Below, one piece after another: positions 30 through 60,984 of a DNA stretch of 64,000 bases (the stretch's first letter is position 1; the number at the start of each line of letters is the position of its first letter). A program made the position numbers and the translations under genes. The notes below the pieces were generated by a model, which was given only the letters and a program-made list of their open reading frames with translations, had not been told where the DNA came from and made no database searches. Source of the DNA: an uncultured virus (IMG/VR IMGVR_UViG_3300028586_000757) (taxonomy: Duplodnaviria; Heunggongvirae; Uroviricota; Caudoviricetes); IMG/VR virus record IMGVR_UViG_3300028586_000757; one strand, given 5' to 3'.

Positions 30-113
30 GCTGTCTCCCTTTGGCGCGCCTCTCGGCCACACCTCTTCTGAATACGCTGACATCAGGTTCTCCTTTCCGT
101 CGGCCATGGAGAC
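30..113 (+). ncRNA. Candidate structured leader RNA, copy 1
   Basis: GCTGTCTCC(30-38)...TCGGCCATGGAGAC(100-113); GTCTCC pairs with GGAGAC; same layout as copies at 25654 and 58907. Confidence 0.6.
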
Positions 114-138
114 TCGTCGACCAAACGAGGAGAGACTC

Positions 139-1566
139 ATGCGTATCAACTTCAAAACCGCGTCGGTACCGACCCGCGCGGCCAAGCGACTCAAAGCCGC
201 CTTATCCATCAAAGACTCGACTGCCAAGGAGTGGACGGCGCAGGTGTACGGGTATCGAAACTGGCATGACTTGGTGCAGGCCTTAGACACGGCCGGCGTA
301 TCGCCCTTGGATGAAGACTGTCCTCCAAGCGAAGTAGCTGCCCGCAGGCGGTATCAGGTGGCGCAGCTGCAGGCGTGTATGGCCAAAGACCGTGTTGCAC
401 CTCGGCTCAGTGCTGCTGCACTCGTAGACTGCTGGCAGCCTTCTGCCGGGTATCCGAATCAGAAGTTGCGTATTTTGCAGGCGGACGAACGCCCCGAGCG
501 CGCGGCGGCATTTTTGGGACTGGACCATCTCCTATTCTTGCGAGACCTTAGCCCAGGACTTTTGGCGGGCGTACCATCACGGTGCGCCGGCTGGCTGGAT
601 AAGGAAGCTTGCTCAATTGCGCGCGGACTGATGAGGAAAGGGAGCGAAGACGAAAAACGCTTTGCGCGGGCCGTACTCGAGGAGCTCCATGCCCAAGGTA
701 GCTCGGCAGGCACACTGCATCTGGCAATCAGTCTTCTTTTGGGCGCAGGGGGAGAGCAGGACGAAAAACGTGCTGACACGCTCTTTCTGGCTCTGTTGAC
801 TGGCGCTGACACGCCTGAGAATATTCGTGCGGCCGCAGCAGACGGACGCTCCGCTGTCCTGGGCCGAGGTGACGACTGGCCGGCCGACATCTCGAAAGCG
901 CTTGCAACTTGGGAGCAGAAAGCATTGGCGGGAAGTCCCGTTCACGCCTACCGACTGGGGCTCGCGTACGACCAGTTTAAGCCGGCTACACAGGAAGCGC
1001 GAGGTGACCTGGCCAAAGCGGTGAAGTTCTACCGGATGGCCGCGGAGAATGGCCACACGCCGGCAGCGGGGTGCTTGGGCTTCATCTTGTCGGGGAATCG
1101 AGACCTCTGCGAGTATCCGGGAGAGGGCGAGATTTGGCTGGAGCGCGCGGCCCAGGGTGGAGACCGGCTTGCCCTGGAAGTCGGAGCAAAGGTTGATGTT
1201 GCTGTGGCGCAGTTGGCCGCGATGCCGAAAGCTGCAGCGAAGGCACAAATCATGAATCTCGTGGAGCGGCAAATTCCGAAGGCTCAACGCGGAGAGCCTG
1301 AACTTGACCCAGTACTGGGGGAAGTGGTCCTTCTTCCGCCGGCATTGTGGGTCCAGCTGTCGACCGGATTTCTTTTTGAGCGCAAAGAAGATGTTTTCGA
1401 GCGTATCGAGGGCGCTTACCTCGCTCCAACCGTCATGGCAACGTATCCGCGAGGCGTTGACGAGGCGTTTGAGCGAATGGGCTGGGTCCAGCATCACGGC
1501 GAGTTGCTCGAATACTGCAACGCCCATGTCCGCGAAGAGCGAGACGACCGACAGGGTGTCCGGTAG
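139..1566 (+). CDS. Protein with N-terminal glyoxalase-superfamily-like helical domain and Sel1-like repeats
   Basis: RBS GAGGAG before ATG139; AKRLKAAL...AQVYGYRNWHDL; Sel1-like DLAKAVKFYRMAAENGH and WLERAAQGGD. Confidence 0.7.
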   Translation: MRINFKTASVPTRAAKRLKAALSIKDSTAKEWTAQVYGYRNWHDLVQALDTAGVSPLDEDCPPSEVAARRRYQVAQLQACMAKDRVAPRLSAAALVDCWQPSAGYPNQKLRILQADERPERAAAFLGLDHLLFLRDLSPGLLAGVPSRCAGWLDKEACSIARGLMRKGSEDEKRFARAVLEELHAQGSSAGTLHLAISLLLGAGGEQDEKRADTLFLALLTGADTPENIRAAAADGRSAVLGRGDDWPADISKALATWEQKALAGSPVHAYRLGLAYDQFKPATQEARGDLAKAVKFYRMAAENGHTPAAGCLGFILSGNRDLCEYPGEGEIWLERAAQGGDRLALEVGAKVDVAVAQLAAMPKAAAKAQIMNLVERQIPKAQRGEPELDPVLGEVVLLPPALWVQLSTGFLFERKEDVFERIEGAYLAPTVMATYPRGVDEAFERMGWVQHHGELLEYCNAHVREERDDRQGVR

Positions 1567-12270: not shown

Positions 12271-12930
12271 ATGGCTTCACTGGCCATGACCGCCGGATAC
12301 CTCTACATCGCTCAGGACCCCTCCACGCCTTCGCAGCTGAAAGTGGGCTTTACAACGCGCCCGCCGGCCGAACGCGAGCGAGAACTCCGCGGGTGCGCCG
12401 ATACGAATTTTGAAATTCTGCGAGCCTTCCCTACGCGGGCCGCCAGGGAGGCCGAGACGTTGGCACACGCCTGGCTAGATGACTTGAACTTGCGCGCCCG
12501 TGCAGGTTCGCGCCGTGAACAGTTCGTCGGCGACTTTTCTCAAATTTCTGAAGTATGCGAGCGCGCCGCAGCTGTGGCACAGCCTGCAGTGAACTTGCCT
12601 AAAAAGCTGGTTAGCGAAGACGTCACGCTCGAGCACACCGACCCTTTCTGGACCAATCTGTTGGCTATGCCGGTGCACGTGGCCGGCGAACGAATTACAC
12701 TGGCCATCTTGATGGGCCAAGCACTTACTGGCGCCATCGCCAAAGGAATGCTGGAGCGTCGGTACGGTATTGCCTGCACCGGCTTTTCAGAGGAAACTCC
12801 ACAATTTACGGTAGATTGGTCTAAAGCAGAATCTGTGCTAAAATGGCAACTTCAGAGCGGCTATGTAGCACCTTCTACCGCTGAGAGCAAAACCAAAATG
12901 AAGGCAACCTGGCTTGAAACTTGTACATGA
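12271..12930 (+). CDS. GIY-YIG-type (T5orf172-like) domain protein
   Basis: GYLYIAQD...LKVGFTTRPPAERERELR...AETLAH...REQF. Confidence 0.75.
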   Translation: MASLAMTAGYLYIAQDPSTPSQLKVGFTTRPPAERERELRGCADTNFEILRAFPTRAAREAETLAHAWLDDLNLRARAGSRREQFVGDFSQISEVCERAAAVAQPAVNLPKKLVSEDVTLEHTDPFWTNLLAMPVHVAGERITLAILMGQALTGAIAKGMLERRYGIACTGFSEETPQFTVDWSKAESVLKWQLQSGYVAPSTAESKTKMKATWLETCT

Positions 12931-17690: not shown

Positions 17691-19121
17691 TTAATAGGAC
17701 GTGCTGTTGTCCATTTCCTGGGAGGGCGTATCGTCACGGCTAGCGCCCGAGTCTGCGAAGCCTGAGTCGGTGTCCCTTGAGCTGTCTTGCACTTCCGAGG
17801 TGCTCGAGCGGTCTTCGCTTCGTGCGTTGTCGCCAGCATCGAAGAACGACTGCGTCAAGCTGCTCGGTGTCTCGAACCTGGTGTCCTGAGCCGACTCTAC
17901 GACTGGCTCATTCTCACCATCCCAGACGAAGCGCTGTCCTGCTTCATTCGCATACTCGATGGTAGGCGTCGAGTCTCCGGTGACCGTGAAGGCATGACCG
18001 CCTTGCACGAGGAACTGGGCCTGGCCGTTGTTTTCGGTTACGGTGAAGGAACCGATATTGCGGCCATTTTCATCAAGCAGGTCCACGCGCTTGATGCCCG
18101 CGTATTCCGACACGCGTTGAGAAGCAGCCTCCGGGAAGCCCGGAACGCCTTGTTCCCAGTTACCCGATGCACCGCCACCATCGAACTGACCGCCGGCTCC
18201 GCTGACTTGGTCCCGGTGATGGTCCTGCTGGCTTTGCGACCAGAGGTACCAGGCCATGAACGAATTCGGCCGGTACATAGGCGCCACCTCGGGGAACATG
18301 CTCATGAACATGAAGTCGCCCAGGGTATCCTCATCGTCGCGGTACCTGGTGGTGCTGCTCGAGGGCCGAGCAGTGTTACCCGTCAGACGATTCACCCCTG
18401 CAGGAGGCCTTTGCGGTGCCGGCCGTTGTTGGCTGGCTGCGCGCTGACGCTCTTGCGTGATGCGTTGCTGTTCGCGGGCTTGGCGAGCTGCCTCAGCCTC
18501 ACGTCGAGCGCGCGCTTCGGCGGCAGCCTGAGCTTCTGCTGCGCGGGCTTGAGCGGCCCTTGCCTCGGATTCGGCTCGGCGCCGGGCTACTTCACGCTCT
18601 TCACTTGCCATGCGTCGAGCTTGCTCTTCGGCACGTCGCTGCGCTTCGCGTCGTTTTGCTTCTTCCGACGGTTCTGCGAAGGTTTCGAGGGGAGACCTGA
18701 ACAGGTGCCGATACGACGGAGGAATCGCTTCTTCCCGCAGCGGCTGAGTGCCCAGCAGCATGAAAGTCGACTGCACTTCCAGCGTCGTGACGAATTGTGC
18801 CAGGCCCGCGGTGATTTCCATGAAGTCGGGTACACCGACTGCGATGCAATTTTGCAGTGGTACCATGTTCGACGGGCCGGCGTAGATGTACACCTTCTCG
18901 GTCGAGCCTTGACGGCGGAACATCAGCACTTTCTTGCCAATGAGGCCTTGCACCTCGGGATGCGATTCGTGCACCTCGATGACTTTGTCGAACAGGTAGA
19001 CACCCGGGTCAATCGTCGTGTGGCGCGCCGCCTGGCGCACCGACTTGCCGTTACTGCGGCACAGCGTCAGCTTGGAGGTCTTGTTCTTCGACGAGAACTT
19101 CAGCAGCAGATTCGTAATCAT
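17691..19121 (-). CDS. Hypothetical protein with central coiled coil and acidic tail
   Basis: RBS GAGG; EAKRREAQRR region; GGQFDGGGASGNW. Confidence 0.7.
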   Translation of the reverse strand: MITNLLLKFSSKNKTSKLTLCRSNGKSVRQAARHTTIDPGVYLFDKVIEVHESHPEVQGLIGKKVLMFRRQGSTEKVYIYAGPSNMVPLQNCIAVGVPDFMEITAGLAQFVTTLEVQSTFMLLGTQPLREEAIPPSYRHLFRSPLETFAEPSEEAKRREAQRRAEEQARRMASEEREVARRRAESEARAAQARAAEAQAAAEARARREAEAARQAREQQRITQERQRAASQQRPAPQRPPAGVNRLTGNTARPSSSTTRYRDDEDTLGDFMFMSMFPEVAPMYRPNSFMAWYLWSQSQQDHHRDQVSGAGGQFDGGGASGNWEQGVPGFPEAASQRVSEYAGIKRVDLLDENGRNIGSFTVTENNGQAQFLVQGGHAFTVTGDSTPTIEYANEAGQRFVWDGENEPVVESAQDTRFETPSSLTQSFFDAGDNARSEDRSSTSEVQDSSRDTDSGFADSGASRDDTPSQEMDNSTSY

Positions 19122-21306
19122 TGATATTTTCCTCGAAAAGATTCATGTATCGCTTGCACATGGTGTCCATGCTGAATTGTTTCGCGTGCGAGAGGGCACG
19201 ACGTTTCAGTTCAGCACGGTCCAGGCGCAAAAGGGTGACAATTGCGCTCGCAAGCGACTCTGCCGTTACTTCTTCTGGCAGCAGCACGCCGGTATGGCCA
19301 TCGATGACGAGCTCCCGGGTACCGCCGCTGTCATTCGCCACAATCGGAACCCCGGCGGCCAACGCCTCCAGAACAGCATTAGGGCAGCCTTGGTGCATGC
19401 CCAAAACAACCGCACCGTCAAACTGACCGAGCGAGCTGACCAGGTCAGGCTTGGCTCCATGGAAGAATACGAATTCTTTCATGGGTTCGGCCTGGGCCAG
19501 CAACGCGTCCAGGACATCTAAGGCGCGCTCTTCTGCTTGGCCGTAGATGTGCAGTTCACACTCTACGTGCTGTCTCACTAGCGGCATGGCCGCCAGGATG
19601 ACATCGAGCTGCTTTGACTCGGCGATGCGGCCCTGGACGACCAGCTTTCGCGTATCCGACGCAGGCATTTCCAGGGCTTCCGGAACGCCATTGGGGATGA
19701 ACTTGAGCTTGTCTTTTACTTCGGCCGGAACCTCCGTCGACGTGAATTTCAGGACCAGCGCTTCAAGCGCCTCGTAGCACTGCTTGCCGGTGAAGGCCAG
19801 TTCCTTCTGGAACTGAGCAATCTCGTCCATTTCCAGGAAGGCATAATGCCCTGGCGAGACGTCGATGATACGGTGATGTGGCAAGAACTTTGTCAGCAGG
19901 AGCTTGAGCTTGGGGTCCATGTTCCAGAAGACCAAGGTCCGAACTGGATTGTTCGACACGTAGGTCAGGAGCGCTTCTGCAATATCCAAGACATTGCGCG
20001 AGGCACAGGGCCGGAACGCTTTTACGCCAGAGGCCTTCAACATGTCGCCAAAGAACGGGTTCGTGCTGATACCGGTTACGGCGACCTCAAAGTCAAGGCG
20101 GCCAGTCAGGGCCGTGGCCAGATTGACCAACGAGCGCTGCGCGCCGCCGGCGTTCAGGTTCGCAGTCAAGAACAGGACTTTTCCAGTGCTTGCCGCGGCC
20201 ACCGGCGCTACAGCAGCCAACGTCCACAGCCGGCTCGTTGAAAACAGCGGCTTGCCGTTGTCTGCTTCGAGCTCCGCGCGAACGGGGCAGTCCTGCAGCG
20301 CTTGCACGTAGGCTTGCACATCGTCGGCCGCGACCAGCGTCAGGGCAGGGTGGTCAATCTCTGATTGGCCGCCTACATCCGCCGCGATTACCGGCAGGCC
20401 GCTGAACAGCGCTTCCTGGCTGGCAATCGAAAAACCCTCGAAGTCGCTCGTGTTGAGGACGACGTCAAAGGCTGGCATGACCGTCTCGATGTCTACAAAA
20501 CCCGGTAAGAATACCGAGCCTTGCAGTCGAAGCCGCGCGCCTTCTTTGCACAGGTCGACGAACAGCTGCTTACCTGTGTCGCCTTGGTAGCCGCCGGCGA
20601 TGAGCAGTTTGGCATTGCGCTCGTACTGCAGCTCGGCCAAGACGGCCAAGGCCCGTTGGTAGTTCTTTTGCGACTTCAGGCTACCGACCATGCCGATGAA
20701 CAGTTCATCGTCGGCCACGCGATAGCGTGCCCTGACGGCTTGGCGCTGCTCCTGAGAGAACACACCTGGCGACACCTTGGGCCGATGACGGATTACCACG
20801 ACCGGTACTTCGCAACCATGCGCTTTTAGCTCGTCTCCGATTTTTTCGGAAACCGCAATCGCGAACGGGACATTGCGACGACCCCACAGGGCGGGGTCAT
20901 TGCGCCAACCGGCTTTCGCGTTGTGCACCGTTGGAATCACGGCTAGGCCGTGGGCCCACAGCACTTCGAGGTATTGGTCACGGACCAGGTGGACGCAAAT
21001 CCGGCCTGATTCGGCTTTCGCACTTACGGCTACCTGCTCCATGAAGGCGTCCATATTGCCTCTGCGGCGTAGCACCGGGATATTTTCCGGAACTGGCCAT
21101 TCGGCAGGCAAGTTAGTTTGAACTGCCAGGCGGACTGCGTAACCTTGGGCGACAGCACTGGTAAGCCAGTCGAGCACGATGCGCTCGGCACCCCCACGAG
21201 CAAGGCTCGCAAGCACTACCCAGAGGACTTCCTTTTTTGCTTCCACGAGAGGAAGCTGTCGGTCGCTGGCGCGCGCGACAAGTTTGTCGTACACGTGACT
21301 ACCCAT
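19051..21306 (-). CDS. Tandem two-domain glycosyltransferase (GT4/GT-B)
   Basis: LARGGAERIV and LNAGGAQRSL; EGFSIASQEA..GLPVIAADVGG and QGCPNAVLEALAAGVPIVANDSGG. Confidence 0.9.
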   Translation of the reverse strand: MGSHVYDKLVARASDRQLPLVEAKKEVLWVVLASLARGGAERIVLDWLTSAVAQGYAVRLAVQTNLPAEWPVPENIPVLRRRGNMDAFMEQVAVSAKAESGRICVHLVRDQYLEVLWAHGLAVIPTVHNAKAGWRNDPALWGRRNVPFAIAVSEKIGDELKAHGCEVPVVVIRHRPKVSPGVFSQEQRQAVRARYRVADDELFIGMVGSLKSQKNYQRALAVLAELQYERNAKLLIAGGYQGDTGKQLFVDLCKEGARLRLQGSVFLPGFVDIETVMPAFDVVLNTSDFEGFSIASQEALFSGLPVIAADVGGQSEIDHPALTLVAADDVQAYVQALQDCPVRAELEADNGKPLFSTSRLWTLAAVAPVAAASTGKVLFLTANLNAGGAQRSLVNLATALTGRLDFEVAVTGISTNPFFGDMLKASGVKAFRPCASRNVLDIAEALLTYVSNNPVRTLVFWNMDPKLKLLLTKFLPHHRIIDVSPGHYAFLEMDEIAQFQKELAFTGKQCYEALEALVLKFTSTEVPAEVKDKLKFIPNGVPEALEMPASDTRKLVVQGRIAESKQLDVILAAMPLVRQHVECELHIYGQAEERALDVLDALLAQAEPMKEFVFFHGAKPDLVSSLGQFDGAVVLGMHQGCPNAVLEALAAGVPIVANDSGGTRELVIDGHTGVLLPEEVTAESLASAIVTLLRLDRAELKRRALSHAKQFSMDTMCKRYMNLFEENINDYESAAEVLVEEQDLQADAVPQ

Positions 21307-25480: not shown

Positions 25481-25653
25481 GGTATCGCGGCGCCTAGAAA
25501 GGCTTCCGGACGACCAAGCTTTACCGACTACGGCTCCTTTCAGGAGCCGTTTTTCTTTGTCATCCGGGATTGGCCAAACGTTCGGCGCTCCCGAAGGTGG
25601 GACCTTGGTATCTATAATTGGGTAGGAGCTTCTGGCTCTCGGGTTCAGCGCCC

Positions 25654-25747
25654 GCCGTCCTCGCTCCGCAAGGAGTCCGGTTAAACCCTGAATACACCCA
25701 AGCCCTTACTTTCCAATCCCTGAATTGGTTGTTTCGGCAATGAGGAC
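25654..25747 (+). ncRNA. Candidate structured leader RNA, copy 2
   Basis: GCCGTCCTC...TCGGCAATGAGGAC; GTCCTC/GAGGAC stem; GCTCC-GCAA-GGAGT hairpin; TATAAT at 25614. Confidence 0.65.
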
Positions 25748-25789
25748 ACCGTACACAAAAAAGGCCAATCCTGATGAAAGGAAGTCAAC

Positions 25790-26530
25790 ATGTCGGACAC
25801 TATCAAAGCCCAGTCGTTTGTGCTCGCACGCGCGCTGGAGAAACTCGGAATCCGCCTGTCGCACGGTAACGCCCTGGATGTCATTGCGCAACTGGAAGGG
25901 GCCGAGAGCTGGAATCATTTTCTGGCTAAGCAGCCTAAGACCGAGCCTCCGCAGGACTGCGCAGCAGTAGCACCGGAACGACGCGCATTGGCGGAACAAG
26001 CTGCGGCTGAAGTCGCAAGCACTGCCGGCTCGACGTACGCTCCGGGCGACCAGGTGTCTGTGCTGGTATCTGGGGGCCTGGACGCCCCGCTGCCAGTCCA
26101 TGTGCGGACCCTGCACAATCCGGAGGACCTGCTGCAGGCATCGTTACGTCTGCTCATGGCTGAGGAGGACTCACAGCCGAGGCTCTACCAGAAGGTCACG
26201 CTGGAACAAACTGCCAAAGGCTTCTCTGTCATTAAAGTAGAACCGCTCACGAGAGATGCGTTGACAAGCGCATCGGTGAACATCGAGTTGCGGCCTGCAC
26301 GCCCAGGGGAGCAGATGGTCATGTGTCCACTTAGCGGTCTGATGTATAAGCCGCGCAGTGGTCGGTTCAACGTCGCCATGCACTATGTCGGCGTGTTTCT
26401 GCCGGGAGAGGCCTCTCCCGTCATGAAGGCGCTCGTGCCCGCCCGTGTATGGGATGCTGCCCGCTCGCCTGGAGCAAAGTCCTTCCGGCTCTCGTTGGGC
26501 GAGATGGCTGCCGCCTATCACCAGCAGTAA
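25790..26530 (+). CDS. Glyoxalase-superfamily-like N-terminal domain protein
   Basis: LEKLGIRLSHGNALDVIAQLEGAESWNHF. Confidence 0.7.
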   Translation: MSDTIKAQSFVLARALEKLGIRLSHGNALDVIAQLEGAESWNHFLAKQPKTEPPQDCAAVAPERRALAEQAAAEVASTAGSTYAPGDQVSVLVSGGLDAPLPVHVRTLHNPEDLLQASLRLLMAEEDSQPRLYQKVTLEQTAKGFSVIKVEPLTRDALTSASVNIELRPARPGEQMVMCPLSGLMYKPRSGRFNVAMHYVGVFLPGEASPVMKALVPARVWDAARSPGAKSFRLSLGEMAAAYHQQ

Positions 26531-26605: not shown

Positions 26606-29101
26606 TCACTGCGATGACAGCAGGCTTGGTTCGAGTTGGTCGCAACGTGCGCAGAGCCCCGAGGGTACTAAGCCGCGATGCCGACGACAGCGAGGGCAGC
26701 GAAGCAGCTCCGTCCGACGGCACGCCACTCGGTATTCAGCGCCTGCGGTGCGCTCCACCCGAGCGCAGTCGAAGAAATCTTCCAGCACATCGGTTGGCAC
26801 GTCCGCCGGCAGCGTCACTTGGAGTTCCAGCTGTGCTGGCCCCTTCAGGCTCTCGTCACGATTTGTCTCGACAAACTGATTCACCTCGCGACGCAGTTGG
26901 CGTAGGCCGGCCAGAACGCCTTGGTCCTGAAGCGCCGGCAGGACCACGTCGGCCAGCTGCAGCTCCAGCGAAGTCACTGCGCTATCTTCGCGTAGGTTCG
27001 GACGCATCAGCTGATACGCTTCCTCGGCCGTGTAGGGCAGGAGCGGCACGAACAGCCGTACCAGCACCGCCATCACGGTTGCGAGTACCGTTTGTGCTTC
27101 GCGCCGGCGAGGTGCATCCGGAGCATCGCAGTAAAGGCTATCCTTCACCGCGGTGAAGTATTCGCTGCTGGTAGCTTCGCAATACAACGCCAGGGCGCTG
27201 CTAACGCCGGCGAAGTCATATTGGTCAGCCGCAGCCTTGGCATCGTGAACCAGCTGGGACAGCTCGGCCAGTTGCCAGACGTGCAGGGTGTTCGTCACCG
27301 GAACTGCCTGGTCAAACTTGAAGTCCGCGGTGTTTTGCAGACAGAATCGTAGCGTGTTGCGAAGCTTGCGATAGCGCTCTGCCGTGCGCTCGAGCGACTG
27401 TGCCGACATGGTCAAGTCGCGAGTGTAATCTTGGGACAGCGCCCACAGGCGCAGCACGTCTGGGCTGTGCTTGGCCAGCATCTTGTCCATCGACTCGTAG
27501 TTGGCGCTGGACTTCGAGAACTTGCGCCCCTTCTCATCGAGGACAAAACCGTGCGTGAGCACAGTCGAGTAAGGCGCCGCACCGTGCAGGGCCATCGAAG
27601 TCAAGAGCGACGACTGGAACCATCCGCGATGTTGGTCAGAGCCTTCCAGCACCAGGTCGGCCGGTCGGCCAAAACGCTCCCGCATTACGAGCTCATGCGT
27701 CATACCACTATCGAACCACACGTCGAGCGTACGACGTCCCTTGTCGCGCTGCCATGCTTCAACGCCTTCCTGCGCGACCGCCTCGAGCAGCTCCGGCGCG
27801 GTACCCGGTTCAGCGAGCGGGGTGCCCCACAGGCGATTACGCGATAAGCACCAAGACGTGCGCGTGGCGAGCATGGAGGAGAGTCGTTCTCGTCCCGTGC
27901 TTGGAACGAAAGAGACATTTTCCAGTGCTTCAGCTGCTTTTGGCGCTAGCTCGGTCAGGTCCAGGAACCACTCTTCCGAGGCTTTAAAGAACAGCGGCGA
28001 CTTGTGGCGCCAGCAATGTGGATATTCGTGCTGCACGGTAGTGCGTGAGTACAGAAGGTCTTCCAGGGTTTCCAGCACCGCTTTGCCGGCGGCAGCCAGG
28101 CCGAGCCCCTGCAATGGACCCGCCAGGAAGCGCCCATGGTCATCAACGAAGTGGTCGGCGGACAAGCCATAGGCTTCGCCAACCCGGAAGTCGTCGGTGC
28201 CAAACGACGGGGCCAGATGCACCAGGCCGGTGCCGGAAGTGGTCACGTAATCGGCGGCCACCACTGGCACGAGTGCTTTGGTGTAGGGGCTCACCGCGCG
28301 GCGGCCGGCCAGGTCAACCGATACGAGTTCAGGCGCGTCATCTTCTCGACGAACCCGCACCAGGTGGCGCTCGCTGTCGGTAACGCGCACATAGTCGAAA
28401 GCCGCGTTGTAGGCAACGCCGCGGTTGGCGGGCAGGGTGTAAGGCGTCGTGGTCCAAACCTGCAGGAAGGTGCCGGGTTCGCCGTCTAGCTCGAAAAGCA
28501 CCTCGACGCTGTCTGACTGGCGCTCTTTGTATTCAACCTCCGCTTCAGCGAGCGATGAGGCGCAGGCCGGACACCAGTGCACGGGGCGTAGGCGCTTGAC
28601 CAGTTGCGGCAGGCGAGAAAAGGCTCGCGCCGCGCCAGCCTCGAAAGCCGGGGCCATCGTACGGTAGGCGTGGGCCCAGTCCGCTGACACGCCAAAGTCC
28701 TGGAACTGGCGAGTCTGCTTGTCGACCTGTCCGCCTGCGTAGGCGCGGCAGGCCGCAACAAACGCCTCCGGGTTGGTCTTCTCGTGGCCCAGTTTCTCGA
28801 CTTCCAGCTCGACTGGCAAGCCGTGGCAGTCGAAGCCAGGGACGAAGGGGGCGAAGTAGCCGTCCAGGCGCTTGAATTTCAGCAGAGCGTCTTTGAGGCT
28901 CTTGTTGACGAAGTGGCCCAGGTGCAGGTCGCCATTCGCGTAGGGTGGACCGTCGTGCAGCAAAAAGGTTGGCCGGCCGGCGGCATCGCGGTGAAGATAG
29001 TTCACCACAGAAGGAGTATTCCACAGCGCATGCGCGGCGGACTTATCCAGGTGGCGGGCGGCAGTCTCGAAAGACGATTTGAAGAGGTTCAGTTGGTACA
29101 T
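26606..29101 (-). CDS. ileS: Isoleucyl-tRNA synthetase, 831 aa
   Basis: LHDGPPYANGDLHLGH, PGFDCHGLP, WTTTPYTLPAN, EGSDQHRGWFQSSLL, KFSKS, C-terminal CPRC..CARC; RBS GGAG before ATG29101. Confidence 0.95.
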   Translation of the reverse strand: MYQLNLFKSSFETAARHLDKSAAHALWNTPSVVNYLHRDAAGRPTFLLHDGPPYANGDLHLGHFVNKSLKDALLKFKRLDGYFAPFVPGFDCHGLPVELEVEKLGHEKTNPEAFVAACRAYAGGQVDKQTRQFQDFGVSADWAHAYRTMAPAFEAGAARAFSRLPQLVKRLRPVHWCPACASSLAEAEVEYKERQSDSVEVLFELDGEPGTFLQVWTTTPYTLPANRGVAYNAAFDYVRVTDSERHLVRVRREDDAPELVSVDLAGRRAVSPYTKALVPVVAADYVTTSGTGLVHLAPSFGTDDFRVGEAYGLSADHFVDDHGRFLAGPLQGLGLAAAGKAVLETLEDLLYSRTTVQHEYPHCWRHKSPLFFKASEEWFLDLTELAPKAAEALENVSFVPSTGRERLSSMLATRTSWCLSRNRLWGTPLAEPGTAPELLEAVAQEGVEAWQRDKGRRTLDVWFDSGMTHELVMRERFGRPADLVLEGSDQHRGWFQSSLLTSMALHGAAPYSTVLTHGFVLDEKGRKFSKSSANYESMDKMLAKHSPDVLRLWALSQDYTRDLTMSAQSLERTAERYRKLRNTLRFCLQNTADFKFDQAVPVTNTLHVWQLAELSQLVHDAKAAADQYDFAGVSSALALYCEATSSEYFTAVKDSLYCDAPDAPRRREAQTVLATVMAVLVRLFVPLLPYTAEEAYQLMRPNLREDSAVTSLELQLADVVLPALQDQGVLAGLRQLRREVNQFVETNRDESLKGPAQLELQVTLPADVPTDVLEDFFDCARVERTAGAEYRVACRRTELLRCPRCRRHRGLVPSGLCARCDQLEPSLLSSQ

Positions 29102-29116
29102 GAGTTTCGGCTCCAG

Positions 29117-29197
29117 AAAAAGAGAAGGCAACTTGTCCGGTTGCCTTTGAGCCGGTACAGATAGCAAAAAGGCAACCGGGTCAGGGTTGCCTTTGAG
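29117..29197 (-). terminator. Tandem attenuator terminators upstream of ileS
   Basis: Two hairpins, both starting CTCAAAGGCAACC and closing with GTTGCCTT plus a U-tract. Confidence 0.8.
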
Positions 29198-29216
29198 ATG
29201 CGAGGGATTCGCGGTG

Positions 29217-29300
29217 TTATGCTGACATGCGTAGCCATCCCTGCTGCTCAAGAGCAACCTGGGTGCTAATAATTATGGCGGCGGTCAGTTGGTAATACAT
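29217..29300 (-). CDS. ileS leader peptide MYYQLTAAIIISTQVALEQQGWLRMSA
   Basis: Tandem Ile codons ATA ATT ATT followed by an antiterminator-forming segment. Confidence 0.8.
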   Translation of the reverse strand: MYYQLTAAIIISTQVALEQQGWLRMSA

Positions 29301-55703: not shown

Positions 55704-56083
55704 GCCATCTCCACAGTACTCGCATTCCAAGCCCGCCTTCTGGCGGGTTTTTGTTTGCGCAGCGCGCAGTCGTTTGGTGGGACTAGGCCCTAAATCTCGC
55801 ACATTGCCAGCCTACCTCAGAGTTGCTTCTGTAACGACGAATTCAGAACTTCTGGCCCAGTTGGTACTGGAACGAAAGAGGGCAACGGCGCGAGCTAGCT
55901 TAGCTTCGGTTAAAATGCGGACTGGAGCCGGGCACCAGGGCTCGTGCATTGGTCACTGCAGTCGATTCGCTGCTCAGCTCAAGATGGCACTCTCGCCCTA
56001 AAAGTAGTTCTATCCTAGTAAGAATCGTGGAACGCGCCATCGCGCCGCGTTGTTGTAGAAATCACATCTGTAAGAGGTCCTGT

Positions 56084-57067
56084 ATGTCACTTCGCGCTCC
56101 TGGCGATGCTCGCCCTTATGAAGTTCTTCAAGAGGCGCTAATGGACCTTGTCTCTTGTCTCAAAGCCTTCGTTCCTAGCCGAGTGTGGATGGTAACTCGC
56201 GTGCATGGTGACGACTGGAACGTTCTTTTGGTCGACGATTCGGAAAACGAAGTAAAAGCGGGCATGGTGTTCCATTGGCCCGATTCTTACTGTTCGCGTA
56301 TGGTCCAAGGCGTCGCCCCTCGTTTTGCGCCTGACGCCCAGGCTATCCCTGAGTATGCCAAGGCGGAAATTAACCGCTTGATGCGCATTGGGTCATACAT
56401 CGGCCAGCCACTTCTCAGCGCAGACGGAGGGCTCCTTGGCACGCTCTGCGCAGTAGATTCCGCCCCGCGCGATGCCTTTACGCCGGACCAAATCTTATTG
56501 GTGGAGACCATCTCACGCACGATGAGTACGCTGATAGGGGGAAAGCTGATGCTGGAGCAGCTCCGCCAGGCGGAAGCCAGGCAGCGCTACCTTGCTGAAC
56601 TGGACGCGCTCACGGGACTGTTGAACCGGCACGGCTGGGAGCTTGCATTGGCTGAAGAGGAGACCGCACTCAAGAACCTTGGAGGAAACGCGATGGTCAT
56701 GATGATTGACCTCGACGGATTGAAACAGGCAAATGACACGATGGGCCATGCGTTCGGCGACCAATACATCCAAAACGCGGCTCAAACGTTACGTCGGCAG
56801 CTTCGCGAGGCAGACATCATCGCGCGCCTCGGTGGCGACGAGTTCGGCGTTATCGTATGTGACACGACCAAGGACGATGCTGAGCTACTTCACCAACGGG
56901 TTCGGGCAGCATTTGAGGAGGCTGGCGTGCCCGCCTCAACGGGCTTCGCGATGCGGCTTTCGTTCCGCACGCTCACTGAGACGCTCGAAGCGGCAGATGC
57001 GCGGATGTACGAAGACAAGATAGCTCGTAAGCGTGCCGCAGAGGACAACGACCTTAGCTCGGCGTAA
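56084..57067 (+). CDS. GAF-GGDEF diguanylate cyclase
   Basis: GSYIGQPL..GTLCAVD; DALTGLLNR, DLDGLKQAND..GH..GD, ARLGGDEF. Confidence 0.92.
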   Translation: MSLRAPGDARPYEVLQEALMDLVSCLKAFVPSRVWMVTRVHGDDWNVLLVDDSENEVKAGMVFHWPDSYCSRMVQGVAPRFAPDAQAIPEYAKAEINRLMRIGSYIGQPLLSADGGLLGTLCAVDSAPRDAFTPDQILLVETISRTMSTLIGGKLMLEQLRQAEARQRYLAELDALTGLLNRHGWELALAEEETALKNLGGNAMVMMIDLDGLKQANDTMGHAFGDQYIQNAAQTLRRQLREADIIARLGGDEFGVIVCDTTKDDAELLHQRVRAAFEEAGVPASTGFAMRLSFRTLTETLEAADARMYEDKIARKRAAEDNDLSSA

Positions 57068-58033: not shown

Positions 58034-58750
58034 TTACTCTGATACTGGCAGCTGGTCGAGCAGGTGCTCGCGCTCGCGCTCAGTCAGCTGAATGCCCAGC
58101 ATTCCTTCGGCTCGATAGAACGCTCCTTCGCGCGCGCTGTCGTCGACGCCGCGCTCGGCGTAGTACGCCAGGTAGGCTTCGATGAGCTTGGCGCGCACCG
58201 GAAGGGTTTCATCGTACTCTGGGTCGCCGCAGTCTTTCGGCACCAGGACAACCGGGCCAGTGTACATCTCGCCGTCATCCGGCAGCCACATGATGTTGCG
58301 GTCCTGTACCTGGGTTTCCATGGTGTCGTCGAACGTGGTTGACCCTCTGTGCTGCACATTCATGCCCGAGCCTCCGATGCCTTTGTCGCGCGGGTCGACC
58401 GCACGGCTGGCGGAAACCACGTACGCTTTGGCTTCGATAAGCTCGAAAGTCCCCTCCAAGCTCGTGAAGTCGCCCTTGAGCGGAATGCCTTCTTCACCTG
58501 GTGCGATGAAGTCGAATTCCCCATTGTTGGTCAGCGGGTACTTCGGCAACAGGGGAGCCGGCTCTGCTTTCTCGGACGTCAGCGTTGCTTCCCAGGCGTT
58601 CCAGGATGCGAAGCCCTGAGCCTTGGCCAGGACGTTGAGGCAGTCGGTGTGCGAGAGGGATGCCGTTCCTTTGTCGAGAGCTTGCAGTTCACGACGCAGG
58701 GCGGATACGAGGGTCTTGGCTTTCTCTTTCGAGACGATATTGAGGTTCAT
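58034..58750 (-). CDS. Glyoxalase-superfamily-like N-terminal domain protein
   Basis: ALRREL..LSHTDCLNVLAKAQGFASWNAW; RBS AGGA. Confidence 0.7.
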   Translation of the reverse strand: MNLNIVSKEKAKTLVSALRRELQALDKGTASLSHTDCLNVLAKAQGFASWNAWEATLTSEKAEPAPLLPKYPLTNNGEFDFIAPGEEGIPLKGDFTSLEGTFELIEAKAYVVSASRAVDPRDKGIGGSGMNVQHRGSTTFDDTMETQVQDRNIMWLPDDGEMYTGPVVLVPKDCGDPEYDETLPVRAKLIEAYLAYYAERGVDDSAREGAFYRAEGMLGIQLTEREREHLLDQLPVSE

Positions 58751-58809
58751 GGTGTAATTCCTGATAGGCCTTGCCGGCCGGTGACGCCGTGACGCAATTG
58801 TCACGTGCT

Positions 58810-58907
58810 GTTCGCATTGCCAAGCAAGGCCCGGATTTACGGGATTTTGTCTGCATGGTAGGTCCTATGAAGCAATTAGCCTTACCTCGGAATGAGGCGC
58901 GAACGGC
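58810..58907 (-). ncRNA. Candidate structured leader RNA, copy 3
   Basis: Minus strand GCCGTTCGC...TTGGCAATGCGAAC; GTTCGC/GCGAAC stem; GCCTC/GAGGT hairpin. Confidence 0.65.
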
Positions 58908-59109
58908 GGGTAGCTCTTCCCAGGGACTAGAGGATAGTCTCGATTTCCCTTCCCCGTATAGCTAGAGCCCTTTTGTGCGACGAAAGATGCACTTTATGGA
59001 ATGCGTTGGAAACGTGAGGGAAAAAGAACCTAAAACTCGACCATGAAATACACCGAAAACGGAGAAACGGGGGTACGCCATACTGGCAGTGCCTGGTGAG
59101 GTTAGCAGC

Positions 59110-59131
59110 GCCAAGCAAGGCCCGGATTTAC
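59110..59131. repeat. 22-bp repeat A, identical to 58819-58840
   Basis: GCCAAGCAAGGCCCGGATTTAC. Confidence 0.95.
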
Positions 59132-59241
59132 AGTTCTTTCCAGGGGTGTTCTAAAAAGCAATAAGTATCCGGATTATTGTGTGTAATCTAAAATATCGTG
59201 CTAGACTTGAAACGTTTGTAAACTAATTCTGCTTAGTAGTA

Positions 59242-60984
59242 TTGACCTCCGCAACGTCCACTGTTGAGTTGCCTCGTGCTTACGCCTGGCGCATAGCACC
59301 AGAGCTGAACGCAAGCAAACGCTCGCGGCTCGATGCTTTGCATCGGGAATGGCAGCGAACCCTTGCTACCGCTTTCACCTGGTTCTGGCAACCGTTCCTG
59401 CGAGGCGGGCTCTTGCCGCACAATCCGCCCCGGTCGGGGCCGATGTCCACGTTTCCTCATACCCGCCTTGTCACGTCACAAAAAGACCTGATGGCGGTCG
59501 CCCTACAAGGGCAAGCCAAGAGTTGGGCAAAGAACCTTCAACGTCGCATCGCTCGAACCATTATGCACAGTGCTACGCTCGCGCTTAATGAGCCTCTTCG
59601 TCGTGAACTGCTGTGGGTAAATTCCATGCACGCTTGGCTACTGCCGTACCGGCAGCAATGCGACTTGCTTGCCACTGCGCCTGCAAAGAAAGACAAGCTT
59701 CCTGCCCTATCAGCCTACGCTTCTCGCACCATGCGCAAGCTGGTACGGCGCTATATCGAGCTACACCGACTCCCAGACCCGATGCAGCTACCGCTGCAGG
59801 TCAACCAGCTCTCGGCAGTGCTGGCCGACGCCAGTAATACTATGTCACTTTGGGCGAATCGGTGGCTGCGTGTGTCGACACTCGAGCGTGGCCAGAAGAT
59901 GAGTATTCCAGTCATGAATAACCCTTACGCTCGGCGTAAGGGTGGTCGCTTCGCGACCACCTTTTCGCTGTTCAAGCGTGGGGAAGAATGGTTTGTCGTG
60001 TCAACTCGGTACGTTCAACCCCAACATTGGGCCGAGCACCGTACCGGTGTGCTCGCTATCGACCTGGGCTTGAAGAATCTGATGGCGACGTCGGAAGGCG
60101 ACCTGTATGGTGTTGGGTTTCTCGACAAGCTCAAGCGGTATGACACGCAATTGCTCAAGCTTCAGCGAGGGCTGCAGGCCGCGGGTGTTCGCCGACTTTC
60201 TGAAGCGAAGCGATATCGAGCATTGGTGCGCCGGCTGCAGGGCTTTCTCAAAACGACTATTCAGACGGCGCTCAACCGCGTGCTGGACGTGCGCCGACCG
60301 AAGACGGTCGTCATTGAAGACTTGCTGTTTGCCGGGCAGCCAGGCGAGTTGTCACGGCGGATGAACCGGCTGCTGCGCCGGTTCGGGCAGCGGTATTTTA
60401 CACAGACTCTTGAAGAGCGTCAGGCTGAGCGGGGATTTACGCTGGAGCGTGTGGACCCTGCGTACACCAGCCAAGCCTGCTCGTCGTGCGAGTTCGTTCA
60501 CCGAAATAACCGCCAGGGCAATAGTTTCAAATGTGTGTCATGCGGGCGTCACGCCCATGCCGATGTCAATGCTGCGAAAAACCAGCGAGAACGTTTCTCG
60601 AAGGCCGCAGCTGGAAAAGACACTGGAGCATACGTGACGGTCGCAACGCGATGGGCGCGGGCCCTGGACAATTGGTGCGGCAGGCTCGCCCGCACGATTG
60701 GACAGACAACCCCCGACTCACCGCGGCAGTACCGCGCCGTTGGTGGCGCGAGAGCGGGCTTGGCCGCGCTGCTGGAAAGCAAAAGCTCCGCCATACGGCT
60801 GAGCTTGGAAACGAAAGAGCAGCTGAACCACTGCCTTTCAGCCAGTAATGCGTTAAGTCTTCTTGCAGGACTATCTGAGGTGCATTTCGCAAACCGTGGT
60901 TTGCGAAATTCCACAGGACAAGCCAGACAGCCAAAGCAATTAGCCATACCTCGGAATGAGGCGCGAACGGCGGGTAGCTTCTGA
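59242..60984 (+). CDS. tnpB: TnpB/Cas12f-like RNA-guided nuclease with a long C-terminal extension (start uncertain)
   Basis: RuvC-I LAIDLG, RuvC-II VVIEDL, PAYTSQACSSC..FKCVSCG Zn finger, RuvC-III HADVNAA. Confidence 0.88.
   Translation: MTSATSTVELPRAYAWRIAPELNASKRSRLDALHREWQRTLATAFTWFWQPFLRGGLLPHNPPRSGPMSTFPHTRLVTSQKDLMAVALQGQAKSWAKNLQRRIARTIMHSATLALNEPLRRELLWVNSMHAWLLPYRQQCDLLATAPAKKDKLPALSAYASRTMRKLVRRYIELHRLPDPMQLPLQVNQLSAVLADASNTMSLWANRWLRVSTLERGQKMSIPVMNNPYARRKGGRFATTFSLFKRGEEWFVVSTRYVQPQHWAEHRTGVLAIDLGLKNLMATSEGDLYGVGFLDKLKRYDTQLLKLQRGLQAAGVRRLSEAKRYRALVRRLQGFLKTTIQTALNRVLDVRRPKTVVIEDLLFAGQPGELSRRMNRLLRRFGQRYFTQTLEERQAERGFTLERVDPAYTSQACSSCEFVHRNNRQGNSFKCVSCGRHAHADVNAAKNQRERFSKAAAGKDTGAYVTVATRWARALDNWCGRLARTIGQTTPDSPRQYRAVGGARAGLAALLESKSSAIRLSLETKEQLNHCLSASNALSLLAGLSEVHFANRGLRNSTGQARQPKQLAIPRNEARTAGSF
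60884..60909. other. Perfect hairpin, candidate element right end or omega-RNA stem
   Basis: ATTTCGCAAACC-GT-GGTTTGCGAAAT. Confidence 0.55.
60934..60979. repeat. 46-bp repeat B, 45/46 identical to 58870-58915
   Basis: AAGCAATTAGCC(T/A)TACCTCGGAATGAGGCGCGAACGGCGGGTAGCT. Confidence 0.95.

What the first reader, a model, noticed from the sequence alone, without database searches (positions are those of the whole stretch)
25654..26530. A covarying structured leader RNA always paired with one N-terminal protein domain carrying variable cargo: candidate new RNA-protein system
Seen: three dispersed genes (139..1566+, 25790..26530+, 58034..58750-) share only an N-terminal motif of about 45 aa, K..A..L...L.....S...A....A...G...W (AQVYGYRNW, AQLEGAESW, AKAQGFASW). 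Their C-termini are unrelated (Sel1 repeats or unknown). Each gene is preceded by an element of about 85-100 nt with the same layout: GCY, a 6-nt arm, a short hairpin, CTGAATAC or CTAATTGC, a variable segment, TYGGCMAT, then the complementary arm. The arms differ but always pair: GTCTCC/GGAGAC (33-38/108-113), GTCCTC/GAGGAC (25657-62/25742-47) and GTTCGC/GCGAAC (58904-899/58815-810). I found this element before no other gene. Knowledge: the motif resembles the small helical domain annotated as 'glyoxalase superfamily protein' (Glyoxalase_8-like), whose function I do not know to be established. Inference: the domain binds its cognate RNA. That could be autoregulation, an RNA antitoxin, or an RNP whose variable RNA segment directs diverse effector domains.
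Basis: partly seen in the sequence, partly recalled or inferred. Interest (0 to 1): 0.9.

Follow-up and report, generated by a model that had tools for sequence, protein, structure and literature searches.

The report
Leader RNA tied to protein domain
A folded stretch of RNA of about 90-110 bases, matching no family in the Rfam RNA catalogue, sits at the start of the messenger RNA of nearly every gene examined whose protein begins with one small three-helix domain, and it most likely controls how much of that protein is made.

Summary
The window holds three intact copies and a fourth split by a TnpB insertion element. Each intact copy lies in front of a gene that starts with the first ~55 residues of Pfam PF20066 (Glyoxalase_8).

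The same element precedes such genes in four other settings:
- An 801-kb Variovorax plasmid, where all 9 model hits at E<1e-3 precede such genes.
- Two samples of alphaproteobacterial genomes, with hits upstream of 16 of 17 and 25 of 28 PF20066 loci.
- Other plasmids.
- A phage-like contig.

The one PF20066 gene that lacks the N-terminal part also lacks the element.

The closing helix P1 pairs in every sequence examined, with about 20 different arm pairs and some U.G wobbles. A second hairpin (P2) covaries too. The variable interior is complementary to each gene's own downstream leader up to the ribosome-binding site (cognate -23.1 against non-cognate -14.1 kcal/mol; 0 of 5000 permutations).

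Sigma-70-type promoters lie 15-35 nt upstream, so the element is the 5' end of the mRNA. Nothing in Rfam 15 matches it.

Best reading: a new cis-acting leader that controls translation. What it senses is unknown. The protein's own N-terminal domain is the leading candidate but is untested.

The parts
25613..25618 (+). TATAAT, a -10-like box 35 nt upstream of copy 2. Equivalent CTATAnn boxes precede the other beta-type copies.
   Evidence: Read. The consensus promoter scan of this region found none, so this is inference.
25654..25750 (+). Leader element copy 2 (the focal copy). P1 is 25657-25662 with 25742-25747. P2 is 25664-25667 with 25672-25675. The junction CCGGTTAAA is at 25677-25685. The P3 hairpin is 25713-25717 with 25724-25728. 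The 3' junction TCGGCAAT is at 25734-25741.
   Evidence: R1 scores it 64.6 bits and R2 70.1 bits.
25751..25789 (+). Downstream leader of copy 2. GGCCAAT (25763-25769) repeats the 5' half of P3 and could pair with the interior. The ribosome-binding site AAAGGAAG is at 25777-25784.
   Evidence: Read. For this copy, cognate pairing is no better than non-cognate or shuffled pairing, so the evidence here is weak.
25790..26530 (+). Gene for P0002 (246 aa). It has the N-terminal three-helix PF20066 module (residues 3-47), a linker, and an alpha/beta C-terminal domain of unknown fold.
30..116 (+). Leader element copy 1 (A-type, without P2). P1 is 33-38 with 108-113. Its promoter is cut off by the start of the window.
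   Evidence: R1 scores it 59.5 bits.
139..1566 (+). Gene for P0001 (475 aa), with the N-terminal module followed by a Sel1-like repeat region.
58807..58907 (-). Leader element copy 3. P1 is 58904-58899 with 58815-58810. The interior GGCCTTGC lies at 58831-58824.
   Evidence: R2 scores it 92.9 bits.
58751..58806 (-). Downstream leader of copy 3. It holds the hairpin CGTGAC/GTCACG. GCAAGGCC (58774-58767) is complementary to the interior GGCCTTGC. The ribosome-binding site AGGAA is at 58762-58758.
   Evidence: Read. The Variovorax orthologue has the compensated pair GGGGCCTCGCT/AGCGAGGCCCC.
58034..58750 (-). Gene for P0003 (238 aa), with the N-terminal module and an unknown C-terminus.
60934..60979 (-). 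5' half of a fourth element copy, 98% identical to copy 3 over 46 nt.
   Evidence: Repeat D2. R2 scores it 28.2 bits.
59075..59131 (-). Diverged 3' half of the fourth copy, 74% identical to copy 3. Its 3' arm no longer pairs perfectly.
   Evidence: Repeat D1, with the sequence read.
59132..60933 (+). IS200/IS605-type insertion carrying a TnpB (Cas12f1-like TNB and OrfB_IS605 domains). It splits the fourth copy and sits directly after TTAC.

Best explanation
The element is the 5' leader of the mRNA of genes whose product begins with the ~55-residue three-helix N-terminal module of PF20066. It acts in cis on translation.

Anatomy:
- Transcription starts at a sigma-70-type promoter 15-35 nt upstream.
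- A 6-bp long-range helix (P1) closes a region of 80-110 nt.
- A hairpin (P2) follows the 5' arm. The A-type copies lack it.
- The unpaired motifs GGYRAA and YGGCAAY flank the core.
- The 3' half of the interior, including a pyrimidine-rich stretch, is complementary to the RNA downstream of P1 up to the ribosome-binding site. A long hairpin can therefore form that hides that site and carries the P1 3' arm in its apical loop.

Proposed mechanism. The leader switches between two states. In one, the interior is held in local hairpins and the ribosome-binding site is open. In the other, the interior pairs with the downstream leader and the site is hidden. A bound factor at the conserved P1/P2 junction sets the balance.

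Shown here: the helices, their covariation, and the link to the domain.

Inferred: the promoter and the start of the transcript (read from sequence, with no RNA data); the effect on translation (about 0.7); that the factor is the gene's own N-terminal domain, giving feedback control (about 0.35); that the factor is instead a small molecule (about 0.2).
For: Structure:
- P1 pairs in 108/108 cells, 96/96 and 150/150.
- About 20 different arm pairs are seen, some with U.G wobbles. Wobbles fit RNA, not duplex DNA.
- P2 covaries and mostly closes with a G.U pair.
- The element always has the orientation of the gene.

Position: TTGACA-N17-CTATMT promoters lie just upstream in the alphaproteobacterial copies. 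CTATAnn boxes lie upstream in the beta-type copies.

Pairing with the downstream leader:
- Cognate interior x downstream duplexes average -23.1 kcal/mol, against -14.1 for non-cognate pairs.
- 0 of 5000 permutations reach the observed mean, and 26 of 35 cognate pairs rank in the top few both ways.
- The probability that the ribosome-binding window pairs with the interior is 0.48 natively, against 0.15 with a shuffled interior. It exceeds 0.5 in 21 of 35 copies.

Association with the domain:
- Variovorax plasmid: all 9 R2 hits at E<1e-3 lie upstream of such genes, and all 6 genes found by the domain profile have the element.
- Alphaproteobacterial class sample: 16 of 17 PF20066 loci. The seventeenth matches only profile positions 58-133, so it lacks the N-terminal module.
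- Second sample: 25 of 28 loci, with no hit at E<=0.1 anywhere else in those 95 kb.
- The element is also present in a phage-like contig.
Against: - No expression data or transcript ends were available.
- Folding energies of the three window copies alone are not unusual (z -0.2 to -0.9).
- Copy 2, the focal copy, shows no better-than-chance pairing between its interior and its own downstream leader.
- The overall paired probability of the ribosome-binding window is only slightly above the control (0.65 against 0.58).
- RNAalifold on the extended canonical leaders predicts P1 only.
- Whether P1 and the long hairpin coexist or exclude each other is not settled.
- Some arms (V4-V7) were located by asking for complementarity. 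The alignments made by the covariance model lean towards the model's structure.
- Nothing shows that the domain binds RNA. Its fold is a small three-helix bundle modelled at pLDDT 60-72, and no solved relative was found.
- Promoter, leader and N-terminal codons form one contiguous DNA block, so they would be inherited together even without any physical interaction.
- L005 and L023 show that the gene can exist without the full element.
Confidence: 0.7

Rival explanations
1. A riboswitch for a small molecule or ion. The P1/P2 junction with the GGYRAA and YGGCAAY motifs would be the binding pocket, and the interior/downstream pairing would be the expression platform. The N-terminal domain would travel with the element because it acts on or senses the same compound.
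For: The element has a covarying multi-helix core with strongly conserved unpaired junction bases and a platform that hides the ribosome-binding site. The promoters are close to consensus, so control would be expected after transcription.
Against: The element follows one protein module, not a pathway. The C-termini range over VOC/glyoxalase, Sel1, Clp_N, ClpX zinc finger, Lon-N, LuxR and unknown domains. No transporter or biosynthetic gene was seen as a partner. The A-type copies lack P2 altogether.
Confidence: 0.2
2. The leader would be released as a discrete RNA that stays bound to the domain, either as an RNP whose variable segment guides the variable C-terminal cargo to targets, or as an RNA antitoxin.
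For: The RNA and the domain are strictly linked. The interior is variable. The alphaproteobacterial A-type genes lie in defence islands between Hachiman and Mokosh genes.
Against: The variable interior is complementary to the same transcript's downstream leader, which accounts for its variability without any outside target. Only 22-59 nt separate P1 from the start codon in 35 of 36 copies. An intrinsic-terminator-like hairpin with a U run after P1 was seen in one copy, Variovorax V1, but not in its window orthologue c3. No PADLOC family matches the proteins.
Confidence: 0.06
3. A DNA-level element, such as an operator with distant inverted repeats bound by the HTH-like domain, a recombination site, or a target site for mobile elements.
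For: The arms are inverted repeats. P1 in the first 18 sequences has no G.U pair. One copy was hit by a TnpB element. The domain has an HTH-like helix-turn-helix spacing; this is my reading of the model and the alignments and was not tested.
Against: U.G wobbles in P1 and G.U closing pairs in P2 would be mismatches in duplex DNA and A.C on the other strand. Several nested and long-range helices covary. The orientation relative to the gene is fixed. The arms are only 6 bp long and lie 80-110 bp apart.
Confidence: 0.03
4. No function of its own. The similarity upstream of the genes would be left over from duplication of a promoter, leader and N-terminus block.
For: The block is contiguous, and paralogues cluster on one replicon.
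Against: Sequence has diverged almost completely while pairing is kept in every copy examined. The element occurs in alpha- and betaproteobacteria, on plasmids and in a phage-like contig. Non-cognate controls fail.
Confidence: 0.02

Closest known systems
Autogenous translational operators with pseudoknots (E. coli rpsO/S15 leader, alpha-operon/S4 leader, phage T4 gene 32 leader). Recalled from knowledge, not from a call.
   Same: A structured 5' leader lies directly before the regulated gene. Long-range or loop pairing involves the ribosome-binding region. The proposed ligand is the gene's own product.
   Different: Those proteins are known RNA or single-strand binders whose leader mimics their main target. 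Here the protein module has no known activity. It heads many unrelated C-terminal domains, and its binding to the RNA is untested.
Translational riboswitches with a platform that hides the ribosome-binding site, such as the SAM-II and preQ1 classes. Recalled.
   Same: A covarying core with conserved junction bases, alternative pairing that reaches the ribosome-binding site, and a position at the very 5' end of the mRNA.
   Different: No Rfam family matches. The gene association is with a protein module, not a metabolic function. No ligand is known.
'Orphan' cis-regulatory RNA motifs named after a downstream domain of unknown function, of which Rfam holds many. Recalled.
   Same: Found by covariation together with a fixed downstream gene family, with the mechanism unknown.
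   Different: This one is absent from Rfam 15. It is tied to the N-terminal ~55 residues only, as the natural control L060 shows.
Cluster #630,527 of the bioRxiv preprint 10.64898/2026.10.21.760802. I saw only passages found with 'find'.
   Same: The preprint describes a motif immediately upstream of genes encoding 'glyoxalase' and other enzymes and reads it as a shared 5' leader.
   Different: The other partner genes it names (flavin-dependent monooxygenase, NmrA-like) are not the ones seen here. I saw no sequence or structure, since figures are not held. Identity with the present element is unknown.

Membership tests
Any Rfam 15 family | A match to a family covariance model at or near its gathering score | tested here: not met
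   No gathering-level match in the window or in 8 related loci at the element; the only match there was ar14, elsewhere in L012. E-value scans of copy 2, L012 and 16 canonical loci gave only unrelated weak hits.
Riboswitch | A conserved structured core with covariation and conserved unpaired bases | tested here: met
   P1 and P2 covary. The GGYRAA and YGGCAAY motifs are conserved.
Riboswitch | An expression platform with alternative pairing that reaches the ribosome-binding site or a terminator | tested here: inconclusive
   Cognate interior/downstream pairing is strongly supported overall, and pairing to the ribosome-binding window is enriched. It is not seen in every copy (not in c2), and no experiment was done.
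Riboswitch | Direct binding of a small-molecule ligand | not testable with these tools
   Needs in-line probing or a similar experiment.
Riboswitch | Downstream genes share a metabolic or transport theme | tested here: not met
   The genes share only the N-terminal module, and the C-termini are diverse.
Autogenous protein-binding leader | The regulated gene's product binds the leader | not testable with these tools
   No tool for RNA-protein binding was available. There is no solved relative and no informative fold match.
Autogenous protein-binding leader | The leader co-occurs with the gene for the binding module across lineages | tested here: met
   9 of 9 hits and 6 of 6 genes; 16 of 17 loci; 25 of 28 loci. 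The locus that lacks the module also lacks the element (L060).
Pfam PF20066 (Glyoxalase_8), N-terminal part | A match to the profile over its first ~60 positions at the curated cut-off of 23.7 bits | tested here: inconclusive
   P0002 scores 24.4 bits (over the cut-off), P0003 scores 23.3 bits (just under), and P0001 has no Pfam hit. All three are joined by a profile of their own that also recovers many PF20066 proteins. None of the three has the C-terminal part of the profile.
IS200/IS605-type TnpB element (the insertion in copy 4) | A TnpB with OrfB_IS605 and TNB domains, a subterminal hairpin, and insertion 3' of a short target motif | tested here: met
   A perfect hairpin lies near the right end and the left flank ends in TTAC. 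That TTAC is a typical target motif is recalled, not tested.

The most novel reading that the evidence does not exclude
The promoter, leader RNA and N-terminal three-helix module form one portable self-regulating cassette. The module would be a previously unrecognised RNA-binding domain that recognises the conserved P1/P2 junction of its own mRNA. The cassette would have been fused again and again to unrelated cargo domains (VOC, Sel1, Clp/Lon recognition domains, LuxR, unknown folds) on megaplasmids, in defence islands and in phages, so that very different proteins share one feedback circuit.
Probability: 0.3. Interest if true: 0.8.

Novelty: new member of a known kind. Interest (0 to 1): 0.72.

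Why it matters
PF20066 genes occur in 15 of 151 sampled alphaproteobacterial genomes and in 44 of 201 genomes of one order. Almost every one examined carries this leader, yet the leader matches nothing in Rfam 15 and five literature searches found no clear description. It is therefore a common RNA family without a Rfam entry, and it comes with a clear, testable architecture.

Its tie to a protein module rather than to a pathway is unusual. It offers a way into a domain whose function is unknown. If the module binds the RNA, that would define a new RNA-binding fold and a reusable feedback cassette. If it does not, the leader is a strong candidate for a new riboswitch class.

It also corrects annotation. 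Several database proteins (P0005, P0008, P0076, P0090) are called through the leader and so carry false N-terminal extensions.

Tried and rejected
- Whole genome of the window: none is held.
- Viral contigs: the protein scan confirmed nothing. A degenerate DNA pattern gave 3 chance matches inside coding DNA, with arms that do not pair.
Narrower alignments were used instead.
- Family C in genome contigs: nothing found.
- Family A in metagenome contigs gave only 6 loci, and the window's own contig was not among them.
- P0002 against plasmids: no match.
- Random sampling of genomes with the A-type model R1 was inefficient: hits in 2 of 151 and 1 of 151 genomes.
- PF20066 in the class around the Vitreoscilla genome: 0 of 201 genomes.
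- Sequencing runs: one DNA holder, a leaf-litter metagenome, and no RNA holder listed.
- AlphaFold model of P0002: Foldseek found no PDB match with E<=0.001. No PDB sequence relative of the module was found.
- PADLOC and NCBIfam give no family for the three proteins.
- Ideas considered and dropped: a sigma-54 promoter, an integron attC site, a retron, a hammerhead or other ribozyme, a CsrA site, and a single-strand promoter of a conjugative leading region. The conserved bases, the mixed strands or the Rfam result did not fit any of them.
- A helix 'X' that directly flanks the P1 3' arm (for example GATGG...CCATC) looks convincing by eye in 15 of 16 canonical copies. In a fixed register it reaches only 67% paired, against about 40% background. 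It is left as a lead.
- Earlier notes of this scan held nothing on this element.

Full report
**What is in the window**

Each sits 22-56 nt upstream of the start codon, measured from 3 nt past the P1 3' arm, and each start codon has a plausible ribosome-binding site.

The three proteins (P0001, P0002, P0003) share only their first ~55 residues. Pfam places P0002 (24.4 bits) and P0003 (23.3 bits; cut-off 23.7) on positions 2-59 of the 143-position profile PF20066, Glyoxalase_8. P0001 has only a weak Sel1 signal.

A fourth copy exists but is broken. Its 5' half (60979-60934, minus strand) is 98% identical to copy 3. Its 3' half (59131-59075) is 74% identical. Between the halves lies an IS200/IS605-type element with a TnpB gene, inserted directly after TTAC.

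Two covariance models find nothing else in the window. R1 finds only the three copies at E<0.01. R2, run with filters off, finds c3, c2 and the c4 half, and the next best hit has E=0.45.

**Where the window comes from**

No genome is held for the window. P0002's own record lies on a 623,534-bp contig. The only sequencing run that holds the DNA is a leaf-litter metagenome.

With my crude ORF choice, 73 of 85 ORFs have no Pfam family at E<=0.001. The window's class I aminoacyl-tRNA synthetase is most similar (58.8% identity) to genes on ~800-kb 'plasmid 2' records of Variovorax strains. Those records also carry a family-C homologue annotated 'glyoxalase superfamily protein'. I therefore used Variovorax sp. 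SRS16 plasmid 2 (801,406 bp) as a stand-in for the replicon.

**The protein module**

A profile of the three N-termini finds 99 cluster representatives at E<=0.001 among 1.84 billion proteins. Most have the module at residue 1. Their lengths run from 55 to 1689 residues. Their C-termini carry Sel1 repeats, Clp_N, a ClpX zinc finger, GerE/LuxR, or nothing known.

The ESM Atlas adds VOC/glyoxalase, DUF3471 and Lon-N partners, and stand-alone proteins of ~50-60 residues in phages.

An AlphaFold model of P0002 gives three helices (3-18, 25-35, 41-47; pLDDT 60-72), a disordered linker and an alpha/beta domain. No PDB fold matches at E<=0.001. No solved sequence relative of the module was found.

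**The element elsewhere**

- *Family A relatives.* Relatives fetched from metagenomes and GTDB genomes carry the element with new arm pairs, GTCCAC/GTGGAC and GTCCCC/GGGGAC. The sources include a Vitreoscilla MAG, Shinella, Sinorhizobium fredii USDA 205, Sandaracinobacteroides and two further MAGs.
- *Other plasmids.* Salipiger and Mameliella plasmids add more copies, including GCCCAC/GTGGGC.
- *Variovorax plasmid.* R2 gives 12 hits at E<=1, of which 9 have E<1e-3. All 9 lie directly upstream of ORFs with the module; 8 are clear and one is divergent. The module profile finds 6 genes, and all 6 have the element.
- *First genome sample.* In 151 alphaproteobacterial genomes, PF20066 occurs at 17 places in 15 genomes. 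R2 finds the element directly upstream of 16 of them, at 17-45 bits. The seventeenth place (L060) matches only profile positions 58-133. It lacks the N-terminal module and also lacks the element, which makes it a natural control.
- *Second genome sample.* In the order around G004, 44 of 201 genomes have PF20066. Of the 30 loci fetched I scanned 28. 25 have a hit at E<=0.1, always directly upstream, and no other hit at that level occurs in the 95 kb. By eye, two of the three misses (L070, L080) and the unscanned L097 show the element. L084 has an imperfect P1 in that register.
- *Phage-like contig.* A phage-like contig from a gut sample has the element with the arms CCCTCC/GGAGGG.
- *Exceptions.* L005, whose gene follows a LuxR gene directly, has no element. 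L023 (Paraburkholderia) has only a 7-bp hairpin with a bulge and a short loop. L026 is a pseudogene.

**Structure**

P1 pairs in 108 of 108 cells of an 18-sequence alignment. 5 of its 6 pairs carry compensatory changes, and no shuffle reaches the observed covariation score. It also pairs in 96 of 96 and in 150 of 150 cells of the two genome samples, with U.G wobbles.

About 20 distinct arm pairs were seen.

P2 covaries in sequence and in length and usually closes with a G.U pair. The A-type copies (c1 and the alphaproteobacterial family A) lack P2. The conserved unpaired motifs are GGYRAA after P2 and YGGCAAY four bases before the 3' arm.

Two caveats apply. Four Variovorax arm pairs were first found by a script that required complementarity. 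The alignments made by the model lean towards its structure.

The wobbles, the G.U closing pairs and the fixed orientation relative to the gene all argue for RNA rather than duplex DNA.

**Position in the transcript**

The canonical alphaproteobacterial copies have near-consensus TTGACA-N17-CTATMT promoters that end about 15-20 nt before P1. The beta-type copies have CTATAnn boxes 17-50 nt before P1. For copy 2 this box is TATAAT at 25613-25618, downstream of a terminator-like hairpin at 25530-25550.

The element is therefore at the 5' end of the mRNA. This is inferred from the sequence, because no RNA data were available.

**The variable interior pairs with its own downstream leader**

While reading the leaders I noticed that the interior just 5' of the YGGCAAY motif is complementary to a stretch downstream of P1, next to the ribosome-binding site. 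The two sides change together:

| Copy | Interior | Downstream |
|---|---|---|
| c3 | GGCCTTGC | GCAAGGCC |
| Variovorax orthologue of c3 | GGGGCCTCGCT | AGCGAGGCCCC |
| Several canonical copies | GGCGAA | TTCGCC |
| Salipiger | GGTGCCG | CGGCACC |

These pairs are read.

I then measured duplex energies, leaving out P1 and its immediate flanks. Each interior with its own downstream leader averages -23.1 kcal/mol. Interiors with the downstream leaders of other copies average -14.1 kcal/mol. 0 of 5000 permutations reach the native mean, and 26 of 35 copies rank in the top few in both directions.

The probability that the ribosome-binding window pairs with the interior is 0.48, against 0.15 when the interior is shuffled. 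It exceeds 0.5 in 21 of 35 copies. In 15 of 35 copies at most 5% of shuffles reach the native value.

Three results weaken this. Copy 2, the focal copy, shows no significant signal in any of these tests. The total pairedness of the ribosome-binding window is barely raised (0.65 against 0.58). RNAalifold on the extended leaders returns P1 only.

**How it most likely works**

The leader can fold in two ways. In one, P1, P2 and local interior hairpins form and the ribosome-binding site is open. In the other, the interior pairs with the downstream leader and hides the site, and the P1 3' arm sits in the apical loop of that long hairpin. P1 could then persist as a loop-to-5'-end pseudoknot. That point is geometric reasoning of mine, not a tool result.

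A factor bound at the conserved junction would set the balance. The only thing these genes have in common is the N-terminal module, so the module itself is the most economical candidate for that factor (about 0.35). A small molecule is next (about 0.2).

The guide-RNA and antitoxin readings are disfavoured. The variable segment has a partner in cis, and the leader runs straight into the coding region.

**Comparison with what is known**

Nothing in Rfam 15 matches the element.

Five full-text searches were run: 'Glyoxalase_8'; 'PF20066'; 'glyoxalase superfamily protein' with 'RNA motif'; 'glyoxalase' with 'structured noncoding RNA', 'Alphaproteobacteria' and 'motif'; and 'riboswitch candidate' with 'glyoxalase'. 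None found a description.

[quoted passage not shown] I saw only the passages returned by 'find'. I could not see its figures or supplements, so it may or may not be this element.

By kind, the element is a cis-regulatory leader, which is a known kind, and a new family within it. It works most like the pseudoknotted autogenous operators of ribosomal-protein and phage T4 genes, or like a translational riboswitch. These comparisons rest on my recalled knowledge.

**Verdict**

- The element is a new member of a known kind.
- Interest is 0.72.

Noticed in passing
window 59132-60984 (+), with flanks 59075-59131 and 60934-60979: An IS200/IS605-type TnpB element (ORF 59242-60984, with TNB and OrfB_IS605 domains) is inserted after TTAC into a fourth copy of the leader, antisense to it. 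The right-end flank that would supply the guide of its omega RNA is the leader's own 5' half.
   Followed up: partly
whole window; 26606-29257 (-): The contig (623,534 bp, from a leaf-litter metagenome) is poor in known families: 73 of 85 crude ORFs have no Pfam hit. Its class I aminoacyl-tRNA synthetase is 58.8% identical to genes on ~800-kb Variovorax 'plasmid 2' records, so the window probably belongs to a related giant plasmid or chromid.
   Followed up: partly
L012 7365-17344 and L006 10496-16811: In Sinorhizobium fredii USDA 205 and one metagenome contig, the leader-bearing family-A gene lies in a defence island. In L012, Hachiman genes (HamA plus a DEAD helicase) lie upstream and Mokosh MkoA/MkoB begins about 110 nt downstream. 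L006 has ORFs of the same sizes downstream, which I did not scan. In Sandaracinobacteroides the neighbours are SMC-like, nSTAND3 and FRG-domain genes.
   Followed up: partly
L007 1-190 and 1770-1957: The two ends of this 1957-bp metagenome contig repeat each other (leader plus gene start). It is either a circular or tandem assembly of a ~1.8-kb unit or an assembly artefact.
   Followed up: no
proteins P0005, P0008, P0076, P0090: These database proteins carry N-terminal extensions that are translations of the leader RNA. P0005's extension matches the translated copy 1. They are gene-calling errors caused by an open frame through the leader.
   Followed up: partly
window 44250-48584 (-), 19051-21306 (-), 12271-12930 (+), 55949-57067 (+): Other notable genes in the window: a 1444-aa protein made of HYDIN/ASH-type Ig-like repeats with a laminin-G end; a 751-aa double GT4 glycosyltransferase, including the 'GT4-conflict' family; a T5orf172 protein; and a GAF-GGDEF cyclase.
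   Followed up: no
L022 5930-5965 compared with window 58809-58781 (-): In family C a second covarying hairpin follows P1, with a conserved AATTGC loop: CGTGAC/GTCACG in the window and TGCAGC/GCTGCA in Variovorax. Only the Variovorax copy is followed by a T run, so it could act as an attenuator there.
   Followed up: no
canonical loci, 5' flank of P1 and the 3' junction: The bases just before the 5' arm (usually TGCC) and the 3' junction (GGCA) change together in two copies, L062 and L063 (TGCT with AGCA). This hints at one more tertiary or alternative pairing.
   Followed up: no
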